Positions 11,109 to 22,842 of a stretch of 36,620 bases of DNA are shown here, piece after piece; positions within the stretch are counted from its first letter, which is position 1; each line of letters starts with the position of its first letter. The notes below the pieces were generated by a model that saw only the letters and a program-made list of their open reading frames with translations, ran no database searches and was not told the DNA's origin. Both the position numbers and the translations under genes were made by a program. The DNA is from a virus, in IMG/VR virus record IMGVR_UViG_3300045988_182864; one strand, given 5' to 3'.

Positions 11109-12077
11109 CTAGTCCTTCTCAAGAAAATGTTCCCACTGTGTTCTTTTGATTTGCTTGCCGCCAAAGGAGTAGTGCTTATCATAATAATCCGACATTTCTG
11201 CGGCATACTTGGCAGCGTCAACTGCGTTGGAAAACACCGTTTTGCCAATACTCTTTAATGCAACCCAGTGGACAGTGATGTTACCATCCACATCCACACC
11301 GACGCAATGCGCATCGACATAGTCATTGTTGGTCATCTCCATTTCATTGAGCTTTTTGAGCCATTTCGTTTTGACGATGTGTTCCAAGTAATCCGCATTA
11401 TATTTGGGATTCGATGAAATCACAGAGAACGGTCTACCAAGCTCTTTCTCTCTCAATTCTTCCGTCTCCCGCATTTTTTCGAGCATATACCGGAAATTTT
11501 CGGGGTAGTATTTATACAGATATGCGAAATTCAAATACGAAGACATGGGGCAATACATACAACCGCAGCGCTTGTTTGTTTTGTAGTAGTTGTTGAAAAT
11601 CGGCTGTGTCTTTGCCCATTCCAAAATCACATCCTCGTTAATGCCGTTTTCTGCGAGAGGGTATATCTCTAACTTTTTGGAACTCAACCGCTTGTTAAAA
11701 CGGTGTTCTTCATCGGCGCAATAGCCTATGTAATGCACTACATAAAAACCGACTTCGTTCAGCCATTCGGATAGTTGCCGCTTTGCATCAAGTTTATAGT
11801 GACCGTTACACCATCTTACTTTTCTTGTTGGGAAACCGCATTTATCATACAATTCTTCCCACGTTTTCCTCGGCTTGATTCGCACAAATTGGATGCCAGC
11901 TCGCTTGCACTCCGTTTCCATATAGTCGATAACGTTATGTATAAACGGGTAGTCGATTTCGAGTTCAAAGTGAACCACGCCGTCAAGCGGGTATCTGTCC
12001 AGATTGTGCAGTATGTAATTGAGCATATACAGGCTATCTTTTCCGCCAGATACGCTTGCCCAGTATGATGGGCGCAA
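11109..12077 (-). CDS. PAPS reductase / PP-loop ATP pyrophosphatase family protein, 322 aa (start codon uncertain)
   Basis: SVSGGKDS PP-loop (SGGxDS) near the N-terminus. Cys pairs CGCMYCP. The TTG at 12077 has no RBS. The frame is open back to 12110, with GGAGG 9 nt before an ATA codon at 12104. Confidence 0.7.
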   Translation of the reverse strand: MRPSYWASVSGGKDSLYMLNYILHNLDRYPLDGVVHFELEIDYPFIHNVIDYMETECKRAGIQFVRIKPRKTWEELYDKCGFPTRKVRWCNGHYKLDAKRQLSEWLNEVGFYVVHYIGYCADEEHRFNKRLSSKKLEIYPLAENGINEDVILEWAKTQPIFNNYYKTNKRCGCMYCPMSSYLNFAYLYKYYPENFRYMLEKMRETEELREKELGRPFSVISSNPKYNADYLEHIVKTKWLKKLNEMEMTNNDYVDAHCVGVDVDGNITVHWVALKSIGKTVFSNAVDAAKYAAEMSDYYDKHYSFGGKQIKRTQWEHFLEKD

Positions 12078-12217
12078 TGCAATTGCTTTGTCTGAGTCAG
12101 TTATTGTCGGTTACCTCCGTTCTGTGATTCCACAACCCAATCGCGTCCTGTTCGTTTTTATGAGGGGTATTTATTATTTTTGGTTGGATTTCTTACAAAA
12201 ATTGGCGGTCTACTAAT

Positions 12218-13756
12218 TTATGTAAATACAATCCCTTCGTTTTTGGCAACAAACTTACATTTACCAGATGAATACGAGTTGCCGTTTGTGTCGTAATATC
12301 CATCTGCCTGACCGTTGTGCGAGCTACTGGTTCCTTGCATCACATGAGTATGCTTGCCAACAAGAAACACACAGCCGGGAAAGTTGCGTTTTGGATTTCG
12401 ATATTCCGGATGATGCTCTTTTACCTTGAGTTTGTAAACGTCATCGGGATGGTTTTGACGAAACTCTTCCAAGCTGTCGGTGGTCTGTTTAATGGCTTTA
12501 TGTCGATTTGTAGCAACTGCCTTATCATTAAGCGTATACACACGGCTCATATTTGCTTTATGCAGTGCTCTTCTATCATGACGGCGGAACTGTTTAAGTT
12601 CATACGGCACACGATTGTTGATGCCGCTATCGCAAACATCATTTGGTAAAACAGAACAAGCGATACAATAAGCATCGAGCCAATGGTCTTTGCTTACACC
12701 GTGCGCTGCACGGTAATCGTAGGTGCTCTTTCCCGTTGTTACGAAAAAGTGCTTTGGAAAAAGAGTGTTTAATCTTTCCGTTAACGCGGGAATGATTTGA
12801 TTTAGCACACTTTGCGCACCGTATTTTTTATTGAGTCCGGTTTTCTTTTTGGCAAGCTTCTTTTGCCATGTAGTATCTTTATGCACAAGGTCGTGGTGTT
12901 TTGTGCATAAGCCAACGATGTTATCAATGGTGTTGCTGCCGTTTTCGGATTGCGGTACTACATGATGATAATGGGCGATAGGCTTCTTGCAAAACAAGCA
13001 ATGGCGTTCCTGCATTTCAGAGACAGCTTCTTCAAGGCTTGCTTTTTGATAGAGCGGGCCTTGCTGATATTGCCATTTCTGAACATTGGGATTATCCAGC
13101 CGCATAAACGCAAATTTATTGACTTCCAACACAACATCACTGATAGGAAGAAACTTCCGAATCTTCTTTACCAAGTTAATGTGTGTCTGCAACAACTGAT
13201 TTGCGGTGGGCGTAAGCCAGCCTTCCGGTCTTGTGCGATTGCTAAACTTTGCTTCTTTGTTCTTGATGCCGATACAAAGGACTTCTTTCTCGCAACCCGG
13301 AAGATGGCGCTTGATGACACCAATCTCCTTTGCACGCTTGCTGACGCTGCCATTTTGAGCTGTGGCTTGCTTTACGCATTTCTTGGAAATGGTGTCATTG
13401 GCTTTAGCTCTACGTTGACGGCGGCAGCGTCTGCCGTTGGTGCGTCTTGCGCGGCGAGAGTCTTTGCGCTTTTTCATCAACTTGGGAATTTCCTTATTGC
13501 GAGTTTCCAGATGTGCAGTAAAGACTGCCGTGCCGTCCGTTTTAACAACAGCAACGCCGATATTGGTTCTGCCGGGGTCGATGCCTAAGTAAAGCGGCTG
13601 CACTACATCGTTGGTTTCATACAACAGTTGAATGGTAAATGGTTTTGATGCTACGACTCGCGCTTTCTTCTCTTTCAGAAGGTAGCGGATATGACCACAG
13701 CGAGTCGTAGGCATTAAAGGTTTACCGTTTTTATTAAGCACATACACAGTGGACAT
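12218..13756 (-). CDS. iscB: IscB (OMEGA system RNA-guided nuclease: PLMP, split RuvC, Arg-rich bridge helix and HNH), 512 aa
   Basis: VYVLNKNGKPLMP (PLMP domain). LGIDPGRTNIG (RuvC-I). RRARRTNGRRCRRQRRA (bridge helix). VVLEVNKF (RuvC-II). CLFCKKPIAHYHHVVPQSENGSNTIDNIVGLCTKHHDLVH (HNH). KDHWLDAYC (RuvC-III). True start MSTVYV with RBS aaaggaggtggcgtat-ATG. Confidence 0.85.
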   Translation of the reverse strand: MSTVYVLNKNGKPLMPTTRCGHIRYLLKEKKARVVASKPFTIQLLYETNDVVQPLYLGIDPGRTNIGVAVVKTDGTAVFTAHLETRNKEIPKLMKKRKDSRRARRTNGRRCRRQRRAKANDTISKKCVKQATAQNGSVSKRAKEIGVIKRHLPGCEKEVLCIGIKNKEAKFSNRTRPEGWLTPTANQLLQTHINLVKKIRKFLPISDVVLEVNKFAFMRLDNPNVQKWQYQQGPLYQKASLEEAVSEMQERHCLFCKKPIAHYHHVVPQSENGSNTIDNIVGLCTKHHDLVHKDTTWQKKLAKKKTGLNKKYGAQSVLNQIIPALTERLNTLFPKHFFVTTGKSTYDYRAAHGVSKDHWLDAYCIACSVLPNDVCDSGINNRVPYELKQFRRHDRRALHKANMSRVYTLNDKAVATNRHKAIKQTTDSLEEFRQNHPDDVYKLKVKEHHPEYRNPKRNFPGCVFLVGKHTHVMQGTSSSHNGQADGYYDTNGNSYSSGKCKFVAKNEGIVFT

Positions 13757-13977
13757 ATACGCCACCTCCTTTATGATAAGTCTCCCCTGCCGAAGCAGGA
13801 GGTTGTGTTTCCCTTGGCTGGGTGTTTGCTGCAAGTGACATTACACGAGGCAATACCACTCTTGCGGAGCTATCAACTGGGAAAATCGATAGGCGCAACA
13901 AACATCCATGTGCCTGTGATACTTATGAAATTAAGTGATTTTATTCAAACCACCAAATTTCGTAAATACCCATTTTC
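13757..13977 (-). ncRNA. candidate omegaRNA (HEARO-type) of IscB; 5' boundary and guide not resolved
   Basis: A 221-nt non-coding gap sits directly 5' of iscB on the same strand. Stems include CCUCCUGC-UUCG-GCAGGGG (7 bp with a UUCG tetraloop, 13780-13801) and CUAUCGA...UUGAUAG (7 bp). The position matches the known omegaRNA location. Confidence 0.55.
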
Positions 13978-14445
13978 TTAGATGTGTGGGAACACCTCAT
14001 ACACACTCACATACAGCATTCCCGGCTTGTAGTCAGCATACTCTACCGAACGCTTCTGGTCGTATACCTTCACATCCGAACCATCATCTGCCGTAAGCCA
14101 GAGATATTTGACATGCTCAGCATAGCGAGGGTCTTTTGCGCGATACATTTGCCCTTCTTTGATTTTGAGGCGGCGCATACAGGCTTGGACGCGGGAAAAC
14201 TCAACAAATGCACCATAGTCACCAATCACGATACGGTTGTACCCGTTGGTAATGACTGTGCCATTAGCGGTTTCGAGCGAAATCGTATCGCCGGAAACAT
14301 TGCACCATTCCGGCAATGCTTTCTGAAACTCGGCTCGCACATCGCAGAAAAAGGTGCGCTGGATAGGCTTGTATCCATAATCTCGGGCAAGTTGCTCTTG
14401 ATATTTGAGCATCTGAGCGCCGACTTCTGAAATTCTATGCTTCAT
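13978..14445 (-). CDS. hypothetical protein, 155 aa
   Basis: RBS gtcaggagtaatcg-ATG. Confidence 0.65.
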   Translation of the reverse strand: MKHRISEVGAQMLKYQEQLARDYGYKPIQRTFFCDVRAEFQKALPEWCNVSGDTISLETANGTVITNGYNRIVIGDYGAFVEFSRVQACMRRLKIKEGQMYRAKDPRYAEHVKYLWLTADDGSDVKVYDQKRSVEYADYKPGMLYVSVYEVFPHI

Positions 14446-14448
14446 CGA

Positions 14449-15129
14449 TTACTCCTGACTCAGCATCTGCGCAGAAGCAACTTCCCGAATATTGCGATTC
14501 TCTTTTTCGGGAGCCGACACAATGCGGCGATGAGAGCGCATCAGCGTCAATACGCGGTTACGGAGCTTTTCGTCCTTGATAAGCCGAGCAACCTGTTTGA
14601 TTTCCGATTCACGCAGATACATTGTACTGTTGATGAGAACGCCATGTACTTCGCCGTCTTCGGAACTTTTCTCAACCTTATCGACATTGTTATAGGCATA
14701 GATGACATCTACGTCGATGGTGATGGACGCTCTCTCAAGAAGTTCAATTCCTCCTTGGGCTACCAGCCACTTGTGTGTGTAGCTTTCGTCAGAAATGTAT
14801 GTTTCGCCAATGAGTTCCAGCGGCGGCGACACAAGGCTGTTCGTGGAATAACGGATATGGTCTTCGCTTTCGTTGAGATTATCCTGCCAAAGGCGCATCG
14901 GCTTGAGGCTCTTGTCCTTGAAGTGAATGTAGGTGTCCTGAATGAATGTGCAGATGGTCCGCTTAATATAGTCGATTTCCGGCATCTCTTCTACATTGCG
15001 GAAAACAAAGCGCGTAGACTCGCCCTCGCCGTACTCTTCGTCGTCCGTCACATAGCGGACTTTCTCCAACACAAACTTGGGTTTTAATGCCTCTTTAACG
15101 GCTTCGAGAGAAAACACATTCCACTTCAT
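14449..15129 (-). CDS. hypothetical protein, 226 aa (start MKWNVF)
   Basis: TGATG stop/start overlap with the upstream gene, with ggagag upstream. Confidence 0.65.
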   Translation of the reverse strand: MKWNVFSLEAVKEALKPKFVLEKVRYVTDDEEYGEGESTRFVFRNVEEMPEIDYIKRTICTFIQDTYIHFKDKSLKPMRLWQDNLNESEDHIRYSTNSLVSPPLELIGETYISDESYTHKWLVAQGGIELLERASITIDVDVIYAYNNVDKVEKSSEDGEVHGVLINSTMYLRESEIKQVARLIKDEKLRNRVLTLMRSHRRIVSAPEKENRNIREVASAQMLSQE

Positions 15130-16677: not shown

Positions 16678-16728
16678 TCGTATCACCTTTCTTTGTTTCG
16701 CAAGCAGCACCATGCGGGTCTGCCAGAC

Positions 16729-16761
16729 AATAAAAAGGCTTGCCAGTTTCCCGGCAAGCCT
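16729..16761 (-). terminator. Rho-independent terminator after the lipoprotein gene
   Basis: aggcttgcc-gggaaact-ggcaagcct followed by ttttatt. Confidence 0.75.
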
Positions 16762-16813
16762 CGATGGATTCAGGTCTTTGCGGACCTATGTTGTAGTGTT
16801 GGAAACGGGAGAT

Positions 16814-19771
16814 TTACTCCGCAGCGCCCTCAACGATTACGACCTCAGCCTCGGTTTCCTTAGGCATGTCGGCATCTTCCTGCTTGGTGTCGGTGCTGTC
16901 CTCGGAAGTCTCGGCAGACTTCTCGGTCTCAGCGGACTCAACAGGAGCGGCAGGCTCGGCGGGAGTCTCAGCAGGTATAGCGGGCTCAACAGGAGCAACG
17001 GGCTCGGCAGGAGTTTCAGCAGGTACAGCAGACTCAACCGGAGTCTCTGCGACATAGGTTTCGGCGTTGATGCTCTCGGCGCTCATTTCCTGCGCCGGAA
17101 CCTCGACAACAGGCTCAGCCCCGGCTACGATAGGGTTTGCAGCCACCTTGGCACTTGCGGGCAGACGAGCGATGGACTCAGTCTTGGTCTCGCCGCAGCC
17201 AGTGCAAGTGTAGGTCTTGACACCCTCATGCTCAGTGGTAGGCTCGGTGGTAACGACACCGTTATCCCAAGTATGGTCTTTCTTGGGCGTGGTAGAGAGA
17301 ACGGTGCTCACTTCACCGCAGACGGTGCAGTAGATTTCGGTGCGACCCTCTTCCTTGCAGGTAGGCTCAATGACACGCATCTCGGCATGGTGACCGGTGG
17401 AGTGTACAATGTTGTCCTTGTAGGAGAAGCTGTCATCTTCGTTGCACTTGTGCATCGTGTAGCCGTCCTCGGTGCAAGTCGGCGGGACAACGGTAACAGT
17501 GAAGGTGTACTTGGTGGGCAGGACCTTTTCGGTCATGGTCGCATCGCAGTTCTTGCAGTGCAGGGTCTTGACGCCGTACTCGTCATGCGTGGGCTGGGTA
17601 GTGATGACACCCTCATCCCAGATATGACCAGTACCACCATAGGAGTAGGTCATGGTATGGGAAGCATCGCGCTTGCAGTGCATCAGCATAGTGCCCGGCT
17701 CGGTGCAGGTAGCCTTTTTCAGGCATTCGGTGTGCTCGAAGTCCCAGTCGTGGCTGCCGATAGCGGGCATAGGAACGAGAATTTTGCTGTCGCAGCCATC
17801 ATTGGTGCAGTACATCCAACGCTCGCCCTCAGTCTCACAAGAGGGCTCCTTGACGATTTCACCGAGACCCGTGTACTCATGGACATGGACCTTGGCAATG
17901 CTCTCGGTCTTGGTCTTGTTGCAGACGGTGCAGGTATAGGTCTTGATGCCCGGCTCGGTGGCAGTAGGCTCCTTGGTGATAACGCCCTCGTCCCACTGAT
18001 GCTCCTCATTGACGGGGATATCGCGGACATGCTGCTTATCGTTGCAGCGCTCACAGACCTTATCTACACTGCCAGCGTCCTTGCAGGTGGCGGGAGTAGT
18101 GACTTCCTTGTACTCATGACCCAGCGCAGGGACGATGTTGTCCTTGAAGGACTTGGTGGCATCTTCCACGCACTCGTGCATGGTATAGCCGTCCTCAGTG
18201 CAGGTAGGAGCGACCACGGTCTCGTTGTAGGTGTAACCCAGAGCCGGAATGCTCTCGGTGTAGGTATCACCACAGTTGTGGCAGGTGAAGGTCTTGACAC
18301 CGTTCTCGGTGTAGGTAGGCTCGGTGGTCACAACGCCGTCATCGTAATCGTGACCGGTTGCGGGGATGACCTCGGTGTAGGTATGGTTCTTGTCGTTCTG
18401 GCAAGTGAAGGTCTTGACGCCATCCTCAGTGCAGGTAGCAGCCTTGGTGACAACGCCGTCATCGTAGTTATGACCCAGCGCGGCAATCTCCTCGGTCTTA
18501 GTCTCGGTGCAGCCATCGTTCAGGCACTTGTAGGTCTTCACGCCGGAAGCCTCACAGGTAGCGGGCGTGGTGACAGTACCATCATCCCACTTGTGACCCA
18601 CAGCCGGGATGACCTCAGTCTTGGTCGCGCCGTCACGAGAGCAGGTAAAGGTCTTGACGCCATCCTCAGTGCAGGTAGCAGCCTTGGTGACGACACCCTC
18701 GCCCCAATCATGGTCCAGAGCGTCCACGAAATCGCGGTTCTCGGTCAGCGTAGCGTCCTGGTCGCAGATGTAGACGGTGTAGCCCTGCTCAGTGCAGGTG
18801 GGAGCAACCGTATCACCCTTGTGCCAAGTCTTCTCCACCATCGGGATATCCTCGGTATAGGTATCACCGCAAGCAGAGCAGGTAAAGGTCTTGACGCCCT
18901 TCTCGTAGATGGTCGCTTCCTTGGTCACGACACCCTCATCATAGGTGTGCGGGGTCTTGTCGGTGAAATTGCCCTTGTAAGTAAGACCCGGAACCTCATT
19001 GCACTCATAGATGGTATAGCCCTCAGAAGTGCAGGTGGGAGCAACGACCTGCAGGATGTGGTAGGTCTTGTCCAGAGAAGGAATCTCCTCAGTACGGGTC
19101 TCACCGCAATCCTTGCACTTGAAGGTCTTGATGCCGGTCTCGGTGTAGGTGGCAGCTTTCGTCACAGTGCCGTTATCCCAGCTATGCCCCTTGGCGGCAA
19201 CATAGTTGTCGTTGTAGTTCATACCGCCCCACTCGTTGCAGATATGCTCATCATAGCCCTGCGTGGTGCAGGTGGCGTCATGATGGCGCACGGTGAAGGT
19301 GTAGACGGGCTGAGACTTCTTCTCGGCAGGAGCGGCAGCGGGAGTCACAGCAGCAGGCTTCTGGGCAGGAGTCTTGGTGCCGGTGGTGGTTTTATGGGTG
19401 TTGTAGACGGGAGCCTTGGCGGGACCGTCCTTAGTAGAAACATTGTCGGGGTTCGTGTTCTGGCTGGCGGCGGGCTTCTCAGCCTTGTCGGAAGCGGCCT
19501 CAGACTCAGCGGTCTTGTTCTCGGTGTTGGCAGCATCGGAATTGGGCTTGCTCTCAGCCTTGCTCTCGGACGCCGCCGCGCTGGTATCTTCCTTCTCGGC
19601 AGTGTCAGGGGTTTCGGACTGTGCGGTGCTTGCGGAATCGCTCAGGCTGGTGGAAGGAGCAGAAGAGGCAGCATCCTGATTCTTCTTGCCCTTACATCCG
19701 GTAACAGAGATTGCGACTGTAGCAGCCATGGCAACTGCAAGCACATTCTTCATCATAGACTTTTTGCGCAT
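16814..19771 (-). CDS. large secreted lipoprotein with about 20 tandem Cys-containing repeats and P/A/E-rich termini, 985 aa
   Basis: Signal peptide with lipobox AISVTG-C. Repeats of the form GHxWDxGVVTKxATCTEDGVKTFTCxxCGxTxTExIPA. Near-identical DNA repeats, e.g. 18400-18455 versus 18640-18695. RBS aaaaggagaagtaaaatc-ATG. Confidence 0.8.
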   Translation of the reverse strand: MRKKSMMKNVLAVAMAATVAISVTGCKGKKNQDAASSAPSTSLSDSASTAQSETPDTAEKEDTSAAASESKAESKPNSDAANTENKTAESEAASDKAEKPAASQNTNPDNVSTKDGPAKAPVYNTHKTTTGTKTPAQKPAAVTPAAAPAEKKSQPVYTFTVRHHDATCTTQGYDEHICNEWGGMNYNDNYVAAKGHSWDNGTVTKAATYTETGIKTFKCKDCGETRTEEIPSLDKTYHILQVVAPTCTSEGYTIYECNEVPGLTYKGNFTDKTPHTYDEGVVTKEATIYEKGVKTFTCSACGDTYTEDIPMVEKTWHKGDTVAPTCTEQGYTVYICDQDATLTENRDFVDALDHDWGEGVVTKAATCTEDGVKTFTCSRDGATKTEVIPAVGHKWDDGTVTTPATCEASGVKTYKCLNDGCTETKTEEIAALGHNYDDGVVTKAATCTEDGVKTFTCQNDKNHTYTEVIPATGHDYDDGVVTTEPTYTENGVKTFTCHNCGDTYTESIPALGYTYNETVVAPTCTEDGYTMHECVEDATKSFKDNIVPALGHEYKEVTTPATCKDAGSVDKVCERCNDKQHVRDIPVNEEHQWDEGVITKEPTATEPGIKTYTCTVCNKTKTESIAKVHVHEYTGLGEIVKEPSCETEGERWMYCTNDGCDSKILVPMPAIGSHDWDFEHTECLKKATCTEPGTMLMHCKRDASHTMTYSYGGTGHIWDEGVITTQPTHDEYGVKTLHCKNCDATMTEKVLPTKYTFTVTVVPPTCTEDGYTMHKCNEDDSFSYKDNIVHSTGHHAEMRVIEPTCKEEGRTEIYCTVCGEVSTVLSTTPKKDHTWDNGVVTTEPTTEHEGVKTYTCTGCGETKTESIARLPASAKVAANPIVAGAEPVVEVPAQEMSAESINAETYVAETPVESAVPAETPAEPVAPVEPAIPAETPAEPAAPVESAETEKSAETSEDSTDTKQEDADMPKETEAEVVIVEGAAE

Positions 19772-19877
19772 GATTTTACTTCTCCTTTTTACTGTGTGAG
19801 GTGAGTCCCCACATCAACGAAACGATGTGAAGAGCGGAGGACTTCTGATATTTCGTTTTCCCTGTCGCTCTATATGC

Positions 19878-20050: not shown

Positions 20051-20138
20051 TGGCGGATAGGGTAGGATTCGAACCCACGGACGCGGATGCATCTCTGGTT
20101 TTCAAGACCAGTTTCATAAACCACTCGGACACCTATCC
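20051..20138 (-). tRNA. tRNA-Ser: tRNA-Ser(TGA), type II
   Basis: Acceptor GGATAGG/CCTATCC, G73, CCA, anticodon arm CTGGT-CTTGAAA-ACCAG, T-arm GTGGG-TTCGAAT-CCTAC. Confidence 0.9.
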
Positions 20139-20179
20139 AAGAATCAGAGAGTGTTAGCCGCAGAAATCTGCGTTGCCCG

Positions 20180-20214
20180 CCATCTACCGCGTGGAGGTCG
20201 CTCTCAAAAGATGG
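20180..20214 (-). repeat. Conserved hairpin motif, copy 1 (plus-strand loop ACCGCGTGGAGG; minus-strand CCUCCACGCGG)
   Basis: Stem ccatct/agatgg, preceded by gttgccc. Confidence 0.6.
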
Positions 20215-20446
20215 CTGACGAGACGAATTTGTCTCGCCCATGCCGCAGCCGTTTTCGCCACTCGGCATGGTGTTTTCGGCTTGACGTAACCCTGTGTAAA
20301 TGACCCTCAGGTGGGGGCGGTGCGGGCAGGATTATCGTCTTCGTGGTGTAGTTAAGGAGTACCGCACCAAATAAATGACCGTACTGCGCTTGTGTAACAG
20401 TACAATGCACGCCCAGAGACGATTTCCAAGATGGAGATGTGTCTGG

Positions 20447-22505: not shown

Positions 22506-22581
22506 TGGCGGGTCGTACTGGGTTCGAACCAGCGACGCTCGGATTAACAGTCCGATGCTCTACCGACTGAGCTAACGACCC
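22506..22581 (-). tRNA. tRNA-Asn: tRNA-Asn(GTT)
   Basis: GGGTCGTTAGCTCAGTCGGTAGAGC..., anticodon loop CTGTTAA, T-arm GCTGG-TTCGAAC-CCAGT, GCCA end. It abuts the previous tRNA with no spacer. Confidence 0.9.
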
Positions 22582-22628
22582 AAGAAAAAAGACATTCGCC
22601 ACGGGGAGCTCAATACCCGTGTTACCGC

Positions 22629-22660
22629 CGCTCGCCGCGAGGAGGCTGTCTTTATGAGCG
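22629..22660 (-). repeat. Conserved hairpin motif, copy 3 (loop GCCGCGAGGAGG)
   Basis: Stem cgctc/gagcg, preceded by gttaccg. Confidence 0.55.
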
Positions 22661-22842
22661 ACAACTCTTATGGGATACCAGATACGATGCTTGCCGCTGC
22701 TCTACAACCAGCCGCAAGCGGATGTGTATGTAAGTGTGTGTAAAACTATGATGTTGTTTCGGAGCGTATCTGGTATCTTTTAAGAGTTTTATGTTATCTG
22801 CGAAGATGTTCGCCAAGCTAAGGGAGGTTAAGCTTGTTGCCC

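What the first reader, a model, noticed from the sequence alone, without database searches (positions are those of the whole stretch)
12218..13977. IscB (OMEGA) RNA-guided nuclease with an upstream structured RNA carried on this mobile element, with no TnpA
The 512-aa ORF has the full IscB domain order: PLMP, RuvC-I, Arg-rich bridge helix, RuvC-II, HNH, RuvC-III and a C-terminal domain. A 221-nt non-coding leader precedes it and contains a 7-bp stem capped by UUCG plus other stems. This is the position where HEARO/omegaRNAs are encoded. I see no Y1 transposase, so it is a solo IscB. The annotated longer ORF start (13834) probably reads into the RNA gene. On a phage- or plasmid-like replicon, the guide could be used for homing, for competition with related elements, or against host targets. 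The guide sequence itself is not yet defined.
Basis: partly seen in the sequence, partly recalled or inferred. Interest (0 to 1): 0.75.

Follow-up and report, generated by a model that had tools for sequence, protein, structure and literature searches.

The report
Phage IscB element with inverted-repeat ends
This gut-phage window carries an intact Cas9-ancestor nuclease (IscB) with its guide RNA, but on a small transposon with inverted-repeat ends and 8-bp target duplications rather than the IS200/IS605 type described for IscB, and it seems to spread among related phages by cutting copies that lack it.

Summary
On the minus strand, 12218-13756 encodes a 512-aa IscB. It is 53% identical to OgeuIscB over its full length, all catalytic residues are kept, and dN/dS is 0.05-0.11. 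The 215 nt upstream (13757-13971) are an omegaRNA scaffold with the OgeuIscB layout. It evolves 4-9 times slower than synonymous sites and shows compensatory changes, including in the pseudoknot. Rfam HEARO misses it, but it also misses the leaders of six other IscB relatives of this clade, so that test is not decisive.

Comparison with more than 100 related loci sets the element at 12165-13971 (1,807 bp). Its ends are imperfect terminal inverted repeats. Sibling copies, including relatives 72-74% identical to OgeuIscB, are flanked by exact 8-bp target-site duplications, and true empty sites exist. This is not IS200/IS605 anatomy. No transposase was found.

The predicted guide (13972-13987) exactly matches the uninterrupted allele, followed by an NNRR motif, in about 44 related phage contigs. 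At shared sites the element is 99.5-100% identical while the flanks are about 96% identical, and the change falls exactly at the repeat ends.

Best reading: a non-autonomous element moved by an unidentified transposase acting in trans, which also homes between phages under RNA guidance. It is a new variant of a known kind.

The parts
12165..13971 (-). Whole mobile element (1,807 bp): left end plus omegaRNA gene, iscB, right end
   Evidence: Conservation with 35 class-A loci in unrelated flanks starts sharply at 13971 and ends at 12165. The inverted repeat I1 lies at exactly these coordinates.
13952..13971 (-). Left terminal inverted repeat (GGGTATTTACGAAATTTGGT...). It is also the 5' arm of the first omegaRNA hairpin.
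   Evidence: It is 80% complementary over 20 nt to 12165-12184. Left and right ends change together in four end variants: A1, A2, B and OgeuIscB-like.
12165..12217 (-). Right end: 53 nt after the stop codon, ending ...CCAACCAAAAATAATAAATACCC. It holds two direct copies of the CCNCCAA(W)n...TAA motif.
13972..13987 (-). Predicted 16-nt guide, 5'-ACACAUCUAAGAAAAU-3'. It is phage flank, overlaps the TAA of the upstream gene and is not part of the element.
   Evidence: It lies directly 5' of scaffold nucleotide 1, as in OgeuIscB. It differs in every insertion. An exact match followed by NNRR occurs in 53 viral contigs, about 44 of which are the homologous uninterrupted allele. The RNA 5' end has not been measured.
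13757..13971 (-). omegaRNA scaffold (215 nt)
   Evidence: RNAalifold predicts 73 pairs, 7 of them with compensatory changes. Divergence is 5-17%, against pS of 0.40-0.63 in the adjacent ORF. Model R1, built from its core, finds one hit just upstream of each IscB relative tested.
13917..13971 (-). Guide-adaptor hairpin
   Evidence: 21 pairs, 4 of them with changes on both sides between the A1 and A2 variants. Its position matches G1-A43 of the OgeuIscB omegaRNA.
13879..13884 (-). Pseudoknot loop strand, UUUCCC
   Evidence: It pairs with 13808-13813. 94.9% of cells are paired, 2 pairs show double changes, and the covariation score is 0.265 against 0.097 in shuffles (0 of 500 reach it).
13808..13813 (-). 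Pseudoknot 3' strand, GGGAAA, within AGCCAAGGGAAACA (nexus)
   Evidence: It is the analogue of OgeuIscB C93-C96:G155-G158.
13784..13801 (-). Terminal hairpin 1: 7-bp stem with a UUCG loop
   Evidence: alignment columns 171-188. It is the analogue of OgeuIscB C167-G186.
12218..13756 (-). iscB ORF, 512 aa, with RBS AGGAGG at 13765-13770
   Evidence: dN/dS is 0.05-0.11.

Best explanation
Window 12165-13971 (minus strand) is an intact, non-autonomous transposable element. Its only cargo is an IscB RNA-guided nuclease and the matching omegaRNA gene.

Shown:
- The protein is a full-length IscB with all catalytic residues and is under strong purifying selection.
- The 215 nt upstream form a conserved, covarying RNA with the OgeuIscB omegaRNA layout: guide-adaptor hairpin, nexus, pseudoknot hairpin, linker and terminal hairpin.
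- Conservation begins exactly at the first scaffold nucleotide.
- The element ends in terminal inverted repeats of about 20-25 bp.
- Sibling copies are flanked by exact 8-bp duplications of variable target sequence, and matching empty sites exist.

Inferred:
1. The RNA is made by read-through from the upstream phage gene, since every insertion is co-oriented with its neighbours. Its 5' 16 nt are the left flank, so each insertion automatically carries a guide for its own empty site.
2. The empty allele has the protospacer followed by N-W-R-R, often the next gene's ribosome-binding site (AAAGGA). The occupied allele has GGGT there and is therefore spared.
3. In a co-infection, IscB-omegaRNA cuts related phage genomes that lack the insertion. 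Repair from the occupied genome copies the element in. This homing, or gene drive, explains why the element is 99.5-100% identical in phages whose flanks differ by about 4%.
4. Moves to new sites are made by a transposase supplied in trans that cuts the target with an 8-bp stagger. By end sequence and duplication length, an ISL3- or IS1595-type DDE enzyme is the best guess. It has not been identified.

The window copy has lost a clean duplication. Its junctions have been remodelled or recombined, as in several sibling copies.
For: IscB identity. Purifying selection: dN/dS 0.05-0.11.

omegaRNA:
- Fold z-score -4.3.
- 7 compensatory pairs within class A.
- Pseudoknot covariation: UUUCCC/GGGAAA becomes UAACCC/GGGUUA in L078 and UUGCCC/GGGCGA in L314.
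- The leader is 5-17% diverged, against 40-63% synonymous differences.
- Model R1 hits once, just upstream of the ORF, in class-B, 70%, 57-61% and OgeuIscB-like loci.
- The positions of its parts agree with the OgeuIscB omegaRNA.

Boundaries and inverted repeats.

Target-site duplications:
- 16 of 36 distinct flank pairs match 8/8, against 0.16% of mismatched control pairs.
- The empty site ATCATTTAAATGTTG^AAAGGAGG occurs in 19 contigs.
- The OgeuIscB-like loci L321, L322 and L323 also have 8/8 duplications; L322 and L323 carry perfect 22-bp inverted repeats.

Guide and TAM:
- Window guide plus NNRR occurs in 53 contigs, about 44 of them the homologous empty allele.
- After the duplication, position 3 is a purine in 18/18 sites and position 4 in 16/18, against a background of 0.28.

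Recent spread: the element is 99.5-100% identical while flanks are about 96% identical, with the step exactly at the ends (0.41 versus 3-8 variable columns per 50 bp).

Host range: the clade at 70% identity or more appears only in viral and metagenome contigs. The best GTDB genome hit is 57% and the best GenBank phage hit is 31%.

End similarity to ISL3: the CLJ-ISL3 repeats GGGTATCCGGAATTTCTGGTTGAT and GGGTATACGGATTTAATGGTTGAT share GGGTAT and TGGTTGA with the OgeuIscB-like end.
Against: - No transposase was found in the element, in 40 window ORFs, in 3 Mb of related loci, or by a metagenome scan with the 22-bp end.
- The window copy itself shows only 3/8 identity between the 8-bp flanks.
- No co-conversion gradient is seen next to the element. 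Classical homing often leaves one.
- No promoter-like site above chance lies upstream of the guide.
- The RNA, its 5' end, the TAM and any cleavage are all unmeasured.
- The residues that read the TAM in OgeuIscB (E460, G461, R462) differ here.
- The purine-rich motif after the duplication is confounded with ribosome-binding sites.
Confidence: 0.7

Rival explanations
1. It is an ordinary IS200/IS605-type ISC element: a solo IscB moved in trans by a Y1 (HUH) TnpA through single-strand peel-and-paste.
For: Most IscB genes lack a neighbouring tnpA and are assigned to this superfamily. The left end forms a long hairpin.
Against: ISC and IS605 elements have no terminal inverted repeats, make no target duplication and insert next to a fixed 4-5-nt motif. 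Here the ends are inverted repeats that change together across four variants. Exact 8-bp duplications of unrelated sequence flank about 14 independent insertions. The left flanks share no motif.
Confidence: 0.04
2. The element is a transposon moved in trans, as in the best explanation. However, its presence at the same site in diverged phages comes from repeated site-preferring transposition or ordinary phage recombination, not from IscB-guided homing. IscB would then only restore the donor site after excision, or have some other role.
For: The identity step falls exactly at the element ends, with no co-conversion tract. This fits precise re-insertion at least as well as break repair. Insertions cluster just upstream of ribosome-binding sites. 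Two insertions lie 4 nt apart in the same spacer.
Against: Target 8-mers at different sites share no consensus, so a transposase alone is unlikely to hit one site repeatedly. The guide-plus-TAM match to the empty allele is exact in about 44 contigs. IscB is under strong purifying selection. Hybrid-flank copies show that recombination happens, but recombination would carry flanks along.
Confidence: 0.18
3. IscB here is a domesticated phage weapon or defence gene, aimed at the host or at competing phages, and is no longer mobile. The repeats are relics.
For: It lies among phage genes in the same orientation. The window copy has no intact duplication. Many decayed solo ends exist in related phages.
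Against: The guide differs at every insertion site and always equals the local flank, so there is no dedicated target. ORFs that are 98% identical sit at different sites (L001 and L005). Presence/absence polymorphism with intact duplications exists. Some contigs hold 2-3 copies.
Confidence: 0.04
4. The element needs no separate transposase. The IscB-omegaRNA break at the guide-matched site is itself where the element is inserted, as a form of self-contained RNA-guided insertion.
For: No transposase was found anywhere. The duplication abuts a TAM-like motif. Same-site copies have razor-sharp boundaries with no co-conversion. RuvC has the RNase H fold shared with DDE transposases (own knowledge).
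Against: A copy's guide matches only its own site, so this cannot explain arrival at new sites. Inverted repeats that change together imply a protein that binds both ends symmetrically, and IscB has no known end-binding or strand-transfer activity. An exact 8-bp stagger is typical of DDE enzymes.
Confidence: 0.04

Closest known systems
OgeuIscB-omegaRNA (human-gut metagenome IscB; PDB 7XHT, 7UTN; PMC9640706)
   Same: Full-length alignment at 53% identity with the same domain order and catalytic residues. The omegaRNA has the same order and near-identical positions of guide-adaptor hairpin, nexus, pseudoknot (loop CCC with downstream GGG), A-rich linker and terminal hairpin. Relatives 72-74% identical to OgeuIscB have the same kind of ends and duplications.
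   Different: There is a 19-aa insertion in the REC linker. The TAM-reading residues E460, G461 and R462 are replaced by S, S and H. The adaptor hairpin is longer (55 versus 43 nt). The native genomic context of OgeuIscB itself was not available to me.
ISC / IS200-IS605 IscB elements (Kapitonov 2016, PMC4810608; ISGst5, Meers 2023, PMC10055086)
   Same: A non-autonomous element of about 1.3-1.8 kb carrying only iscB. The guide is taken from the flank, so the nuclease targets the element-free allele. The logic of a TAM next to the insertion point is the same.
   Different: Those elements have no terminal inverted repeats and no target duplication. They insert at a fixed 4-5-nt motif and are moved by Y1 TnpA. 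This element has inverted-repeat ends, 8-bp duplications of variable sequence, and a TAM-like motif beyond the right-hand duplication.
OMEGA nucleases inside DDE/TIR transposons: prokaryotic TnpB with ISL2, IS630 or IS1031 transposases, and eukaryotic Fanzor in TIR/TSD DNA transposons (review PMC13565253)
   Same: An RNA-guided nuclease rides on a transposon with inverted-repeat ends and target duplications. Each new flank must be re-read as the guide.
   Different: Those cases involve TnpB or Fanzor, usually together with the transposase gene. The review lists none for IscB. Here the cargo is IscB, the element is non-autonomous, and its hosts are phage genomes.
ISL3-family insertion sequences (e.g. 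CLJ-ISL3 / ISPpu12 type, PMC7643977) and the IS1595 family
   Same: 8-bp target duplication (own knowledge of ISfinder family tables). The ends start with GGGTAT and contain an internal TGGTTGA (compared). One relative's end (L087), GGGGCTG..., resembles IS1016-group ends (own knowledge).
   Different: No DDE transposase gene lies in or near the element, and no autonomous partner was found. The similarity is short and was noticed after the fact.
Free-standing homing endonucleases of T-even phages (SegF, SegB; reviewed in PMC13565253)
   Same: A phage-borne nuclease gene sits between conserved genes, is present or absent among related phages, and is predicted to cut the allele that lacks it during co-infection.
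   Different: Recognition is by a flank-derived RNA guide rather than by protein. The unit has discrete transposon ends. No co-conversion of flanking markers is seen.

Membership tests
IscB (OMEGA RNA-guided nuclease) | Sequence membership: curated family model and full-length similarity to a characterised IscB | tested here: met
   NCBIfam NF040563 scores 236.6 bits against a cutoff of 175. OgeuIscB matches at E=2.6e-175 over residues 1-509.
IscB (OMEGA RNA-guided nuclease) | PLMP motif, split RuvC (D, E, H/D), Arg-rich bridge helix and inserted HNH with a catalytic His | tested here: met
   PLMP 13-16, D60, E211, H265, H358 and D361 align with the OgeuIscB catalytic residues (residue roles).
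IscB (OMEGA RNA-guided nuclease) | A structured omegaRNA of about 200-400 nt encoded directly upstream, with the guide at its 5' end | tested here: met
   A 215-nt conserved, covarying scaffold with the OgeuIscB layout. Conservation starts at scaffold nucleotide 1 and the upstream sequence varies between insertions. The RNA itself was not observed.
IscB (OMEGA RNA-guided nuclease) | RNA-guided, TAM-dependent cleavage of double-stranded DNA | not testable with these tools
   Needs biochemistry or a plasmid-interference assay.
Rfam HEARO RNA (RF02033) | A match to the covariance model at or near its gathering score | tested here: not met
   No hit at the gathering score and none at E<=10 in 13500-14500. 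The model also finds nothing at the leaders of six other IscB relatives of this clade, although it detects a different HEARO copy in L088.
IS200/IS605-type ISC transposon | No terminal inverted repeats; subterminal hairpins instead | tested here: not met
   Inverted repeats of 20-25 bp lie at the exact ends and change together in four variants.
IS200/IS605-type ISC transposon | No target-site duplication | tested here: not met
   Exact 8-bp duplications occur at about 14 independent sibling insertions, and empty sites hold a single copy. The window copy itself lacks an intact one.
IS200/IS605-type ISC transposon | Insertion next to a fixed 4-5-nt target motif that abuts the left end | tested here: not met
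   The left flanks share no motif.
IS200/IS605-type ISC transposon | A Y1 (HUH) TnpA in cis or in the same genome | tested here: inconclusive
   None among 40 window ORFs. The rest of the phage and the host genome were not available.
Non-autonomous DDE-type TIR transposon (ISL3- or IS1595-like) | Terminal inverted repeats plus a fixed-length target duplication | tested here: met
Non-autonomous DDE-type TIR transposon (ISL3- or IS1595-like) | An autonomous partner with the same ends that encodes the transposase | tested here: inconclusive
   Not found in 3 Mb of related loci, in viral-contig scans with the end pattern, or in a metagenome scan.
Homing (gene-drive) element of phages | Presence/absence polymorphism at one site, with a nuclease specific for the empty allele | tested here: met
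   Predicted from sequence only. The guide plus NNRR is present in about 44 empty alleles and absent from the occupied allele, which has GGGT.
Homing (gene-drive) element of phages | The element is younger than its flanks, and nearby markers are co-converted | tested here: inconclusive
   The element is about 10 times less polymorphic than its flanks, but no co-conversion gradient is seen in the first 50-600 bp.

The most novel reading that the evidence does not exclude
The IscB-omegaRNA complex takes part directly in inserting the element. The element would then be a self-contained RNA-guided mobile unit, or would recruit a host enzyme to the IscB-made break. This would explain the missing transposase, the 8-bp duplication that abuts a TAM-like motif, and the same-site copies with razor-sharp boundaries and no co-conversion.
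Probability: 0.05. Interest if true: 0.95.

Novelty: new variant of a known kind. Interest (0 to 1): 0.74.

Why it matters
IscB is the presumed ancestor of Cas9, and its biology has been framed entirely around IS200/IS605 peel-and-paste elements. This study finds a whole IscB clade on elements of a different transposon type, with inverted-repeat ends and 8-bp target duplications. The clade includes relatives 72-74% identical to OgeuIscB, the IscB engineered for genome editing. These elements live in gut phage genomes and appear to sweep through diverged phages at fixed sites.

If confirmed, three things follow:
- OMEGA nucleases can switch transposon superfamily.
- OgeuIscB's NWRRNA TAM gains a natural rationale, because it matches the AAAGGA ribosome-binding-site context that follows the duplication.
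- The system offers a tractable case of RNA-guided homing between viruses.

It also gives many natural guide, target and TAM triplets for this clade without any experiment.

Tried and rejected
1. Rfam HEARO. There was no hit at the gathering score or at E<=10. I rejected it as a test after it also found nothing at the leaders of six clade relatives.

2. Direct alignment to the OgeuIscB omegaRNA sequence. The sequence I recalled turned out to be the Un1Cas12f1 sgRNA, so I discarded it. The real sequence is not in the held text or supplements. I compared the layout and positions described in PMC9640706 instead.

3. GenBank phages. Megablast found no match and the best tblastn hit was 31% identical. 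No cultured relative or host could be named.

4. Search for the transposase.
- Pfam and PHROGs on 40 window ORFs found only HTH/Mor-type proteins.
- End-pattern scans of viral contigs gave IscB copies, solo remnants, an in-situ 495-bp deletion derivative and chance hits.
- A de novo search for inverted-repeat plus duplication pairs in 3 Mb found nothing else.
- A metagenome scan with the 22-bp end gave 9 hits; where both ends were present they were spaced as in IscB elements.

5. The antisense 212-aa ORF (12950-13588). It is interrupted in many copies, so its openness is a codon-usage artefact.

6. The upstream 155-aa ORF as a possible TnpA. It has no family hit and is a conserved phage gene that is also present where IscB is absent.

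7. A clean duplication for the window copy. None exists. The right junction is shared with a copy whose left junction lies 4 nt further on.

8. L021 as a compensatory pseudoknot variant. The register does not fit, so I did not count it.

9. Promoter scan upstream of the guide. Matches were no more frequent than chance.
Full report

On the minus strand, an ORF runs from ATG 13756 to the stop at 12218 (512 aa). AGGAGG lies at 13765-13770.

- Pfam finds RRXRR (2.5e-49, residues 4-233) and HNH.
- The NCBIfam equivalog model guided_IscB scores 236.6 bits against a cutoff of 175.
- Against solved structures, the best match is OgeuIscB (7XHT, 7UTN) at E=2.6e-175 over residues 1-509. BLASTP identity is 53%.
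- In a pairwise alignment, PLMP (13-16), D60, E211, H265, H358 and D361 sit opposite OgeuIscB PLMP, D61, E193, H247, H340 and D343. The roles of those residues come from Kato et al. 2022, PMC9640706.
- The differences are a 19-aa insertion in the REC linker and substitutions at the TAM-reading positions E460, G461 and R462.
- Compared with seven relatives, dN/dS is 0.05-0.11.

The alternative TTG start at 13834 lies inside the conserved RNA. All homologues align from the ATG.

The 221-nt leader is real and folds better than all 200 shuffles (z=-4.3). The 7-bp UUCG-capped stem is at 13784-13801.

**2. The RNA**

Rfam gives no HEARO hit at the gathering score and none at E<=10. This is not decisive. 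HEARO also finds nothing at the leaders upstream of six other IscB genes of this clade, although it detects an unrelated HEARO copy elsewhere in one of those loci.

Four lines of evidence support a functional omegaRNA.

- (a) In 14 class-A copies, RNAalifold predicts 73 pairs. Seven have compensatory changes: four in the first hairpin, one in the pseudoknot hairpin and two in stem-loop 3.
- (b) The loop UUUCCC (13879-13884) can pair with GGGAAA (13808-13813). In other lineages the two strands change together: UAACCC/GGGUUA in L078 and UUGCCC/GGGCGA in L314. On a mini-alignment of the two motifs, 94.9% of cells pair. The covariation score is 0.265 against 0.097 in shuffles (0 of 500 reach it), and it falls when the partner strand is slid.
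- (c) The leader differs by 5-17% between copies whose adjacent ORFs differ at 40-63% of synonymous sites.
- (d) A covariance model built only from the class-A core (13782-13916) finds exactly one hit in each tested locus. The hit always ends 20-30 nt before the IscB start codon. This holds in class-B, 70%-identity, 57-61%-identity and OgeuIscB-like loci, with E-values from 1e-13 to 1e-2.

The order and positions of the parts match the OgeuIscB omegaRNA described in PMC9640706:

| Part | This RNA | OgeuIscB |
|---|---|---|
| Guide-adaptor hairpin | 1-55 | 1-43 |
| Pseudoknot, loop strand | 88-93 | 93-96 |
| Pseudoknot, 3' strand | 159-164 | 155-158 |
| Linker | A-rich | A-rich |
| Terminal hairpin 1 | 171-188 | 167-186 |

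**3. Where the element ends**

BLASTN of the region against 80 IMG/VR loci encoding relatives 70-100% identical shows two groups.

- In 35 class-A loci with unrelated flanks, similarity begins sharply at 13971 (GGGTATTTACG...) and stops at 12165 (...AAATACCC). The element is therefore 1,807 bp.
- Its two ends are inverted repeats. The repeat finder reports 12165-12184 against 13952-13971, 80% complementary over 20 nt.
- Class-B loci share only 13819-12331. Both their ends are different, yet again inverted (GGGTATTGAAGAATTTTAGTGG / CCACGAAAAATCTTCAATAACC).
- A third variant (A2) and the OgeuIscB-like clade show the same pattern. The latter has a perfect 22-bp repeat in L322 and L323, GGGTATTTGCGAAAATAGGTGG.

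Left and right ends thus change together in four lineages, which argues that the repeats are functional.

**4. Target-site duplications**

- Among 36 distinct flank pairs, 16 have the last 8 nt of the left flank identical to the first 8 nt of the right flank. In mismatched control pairs the rate is 0.16%. After collapsing shared sites, about 14 insertions are independent, and their 8-mers are unrelated to one another.
- The empty site predicted from L002 (ATCATTTAAATGTTG^AAAGGAGG, with a single copy of AAATGTTG) occurs exactly in 19 viral contigs. Three of them share the long flanks of the occupied locus.
- Three loci whose proteins are 72-74% identical to OgeuIscB (L321, L322, L323) also have 8/8 duplications.

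According to Kapitonov et al. 2016 and a 2026 review, ISC and IS200/IS605 elements have no terminal inverted repeats, make no duplications and insert at fixed 4-5-nt motifs. That review lists DDE/TIR associations for TnpB and Fanzor only. In the searched literature I found no report of IscB on an element with inverted-repeat ends and target duplications.

**5. The window copy**

It has the inverted repeats but only 3/8 identity between the flanking 8-mers. Its right junction (ACCC|CTCATAAAAACG) is shared with a copy whose left junction lies 4 nt further downstream. The empty allele reads ...CTAAGAAAATCAAAAACGAACAGG. Several sibling copies carry the left flank of one site and the right flank of another (L019, L041, L042, L072). 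Copies therefore recombine and their junctions get remodelled.

**6. Guide, target and TAM**

By analogy with OgeuIscB, the guide is the 16 nt directly 5' of scaffold nucleotide 1. That is 13972-13987, 5'-ACACAUCUAAGAAAAU-3', which overlaps the stop codon of the upstream gene.

- A scan of IMG/VR for this 16-mer followed by NNRR returned 53 contigs. About 44 carry the same upstream gene end (...GAGGTGTTCCCACACATCTAAGAAAAT), followed mostly by CAAAAT... and in five by AAGA.... These are the uninterrupted allele. The remaining nine are about what chance predicts.
- In the occupied allele, the same 16-mer is followed by GGGT.
- Across the 18 sequences that follow an intact or 7/8 duplication, position 2 is A or T in 14, position 3 is a purine in 18, and position 4 is a purine in 16. 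The background frequency of NNRR is 0.28.
- The three OgeuIscB-like sites read AAAGGA, which satisfies the published NWRRNA TAM (TAM from PMC12660989 as listed, and PMC9640706).
- This motif often coincides with the next gene's ribosome-binding site, so TAM and insertion context are confounded.

**7. Evidence for spread between phages**

- At one A2 site (8 contigs), mean pairwise identity is 0.995-1.000 inside the element and about 0.96 in 2.4 kb on each side. The change falls exactly at the element boundaries. There are 0.41 variable columns per 50 bp inside, against 3-8 outside, starting in the first 50 bp.
- A class-B site shows the same pattern: the element is 99.7-99.9% identical for most pairs while the flanks are 90-98% identical.
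- The element is therefore much younger than the genomes that hold it.
- ORFs 98% identical at different sites (L001 and L005) show fairly recent transposition.
- No co-conversion gradient is visible. This leaves room for precise re-insertion as an alternative to break-repair homing.

**8. Context**

The window is phage-like. It has a tail lysozyme, a PAPS-reductase-like gene, a dCMP deaminase, an HD phosphohydrolase, Mor/HTH regulators and 14 tRNAs.

Close relatives (70% identity or more) occur only in viral and metagenome contigs, often 100-270 kb long. The best hit among 185,579 species-representative genomes is 57% identical (Owariibacterium). The best hit among GenBank phage records is 31%.

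All insertions examined are co-oriented with the neighbouring genes. No promoter-like site above chance precedes the guide. Read-through transcription is the likely source of the RNA; this is an inference.

**9. What moves it?**

Nothing in the 1,807 bp besides iscB can encode a protein. The antisense ORF is not conserved.

No Y1 or DDE catalytic domain was found among 40 window ORFs. No alternative cargo sits between such ends in 3 Mb of related DNA. No differently spaced end pair turned up in a metagenome scan.

An exact 8-bp duplication with GG-initiated inverted repeats is typical of the ISL3, IS1595, IS256 and IS6 families (my own knowledge of ISfinder tables). The ISL3 repeats GGGTATCCGGAATTTCTGGTTGAT and GGGTATACGGATTTAATGGTTGAT (PMC7643977) share the terminal GGGTAT and an internal TGGTTGA with the OgeuIscB-like end. 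This is a lead, not a demonstration.

**10. Verdict**

The added finding is that this IscB clade sits on a non-autonomous transposon with inverted-repeat ends and 8-bp target duplications in gut phages. The flank-derived guide matches the empty allele in many related phages, and the population signature points to recent spread.

| Claim | Confidence |
|---|---|
| IscB identity | about 0.99 |
| Functional omegaRNA | about 0.9 |
| Inverted-repeat/duplication element type (for the family) | about 0.9 |
| Guide coordinates | about 0.75 |
| RNA-guided homing as the cause of spread | about 0.6 |
| ISL3- or IS1595-type transposase acting in trans | about 0.25 |

Noticed in passing
window 20145-20215 (-) and 22588-22662 (-): Two HDV-F-prausnitzii-type ribozyme hits, just above the Rfam gathering score (45.6 and 44.3 bits against 44). 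Each lies directly 5' of a tRNA gene (Ser-tga at 20051-20138, Asn-gtt at 22506-22581) within the phage tRNA island.
   Followed up: no
window 16712-19804 (+) and 16814-19771 (-): Two ORFs of about 3 kb (1030 and 985 aa) lie on opposite strands over the same DNA. Neither has a Pfam hit, and it is unclear which is the gene.
   Followed up: no
L207, L216, L220, L237, L139, L183 (related phage contigs): The same phages carry a second, distant IscB-like gene. It is 23-26% identical overall and 43-50% identical over the first 90 aa.
   Followed up: no
IMG/VR contigs 3300045988_183639 (L004, L017, L075) and 3300029684_000316 (L001, L139): In these two contigs with two or three IscB elements, each copy is a different end variant (A1, A2, B). 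No genome here has two copies of the same variant, which suggests avoidance of recombination between copies or separate invasions.
   Followed up: partly
window 13968-13980; L139; L025 versus L026-type loci: Small indels of 3-4 nt fall exactly at the junction of left flank and element in otherwise identical insertions (...AAGAAAAT|GGG against ...AAGAAAATCAAA|GGG...AAATCCAA|GGG against ...AAATC|GGG). Each changes the seed end of the predicted guide and the motif that would follow its target.
   Followed up: partly
window 13819-12331 compared with class-B loci (e.g. L014, L037, L051); L041: Elements are mosaics. Classes A and B share the middle but differ in the left end plus the first 150 nt or so of the omegaRNA, and in the last 38 codons or so plus the right end. 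L041 combines a class-A left end with a class-B right end.
   Followed up: partly
L254 11526-12020; L219; L014 9700-9764; L016 2225-2282; about 14 loci with a 32-nt solo right end: Related phages hold many decayed remnants: a 495-bp internal-deletion derivative still in place, solo right ends retaining the last 9 nt of iscB, and solo left-end hairpins. The association with these phages is therefore old.
   Followed up: partly
window 11109-12077 (-): In the PAPS-reductase-like ORF, only about the last 70 codons are shared with the related phages L038 and L044. There a different short N-terminus precedes that part, so this looks like a domain-shuffled gene next to the insertion.
   Followed up: no
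L078, L079, L315 (IscB 70% identical): This sister clade has a homologous omegaRNA but no recognisable right end or inverted repeat. Similarity stops at the stop codon, so its ends may be of another type.
   Followed up: no
L315-L320: Relatives 61-71% identical sit next to SecY- and SecE-like genes, in L315/L316 on contigs of about 240-260 kb. This is an unusual neighbourhood if these contigs are phages.
   Followed up: no
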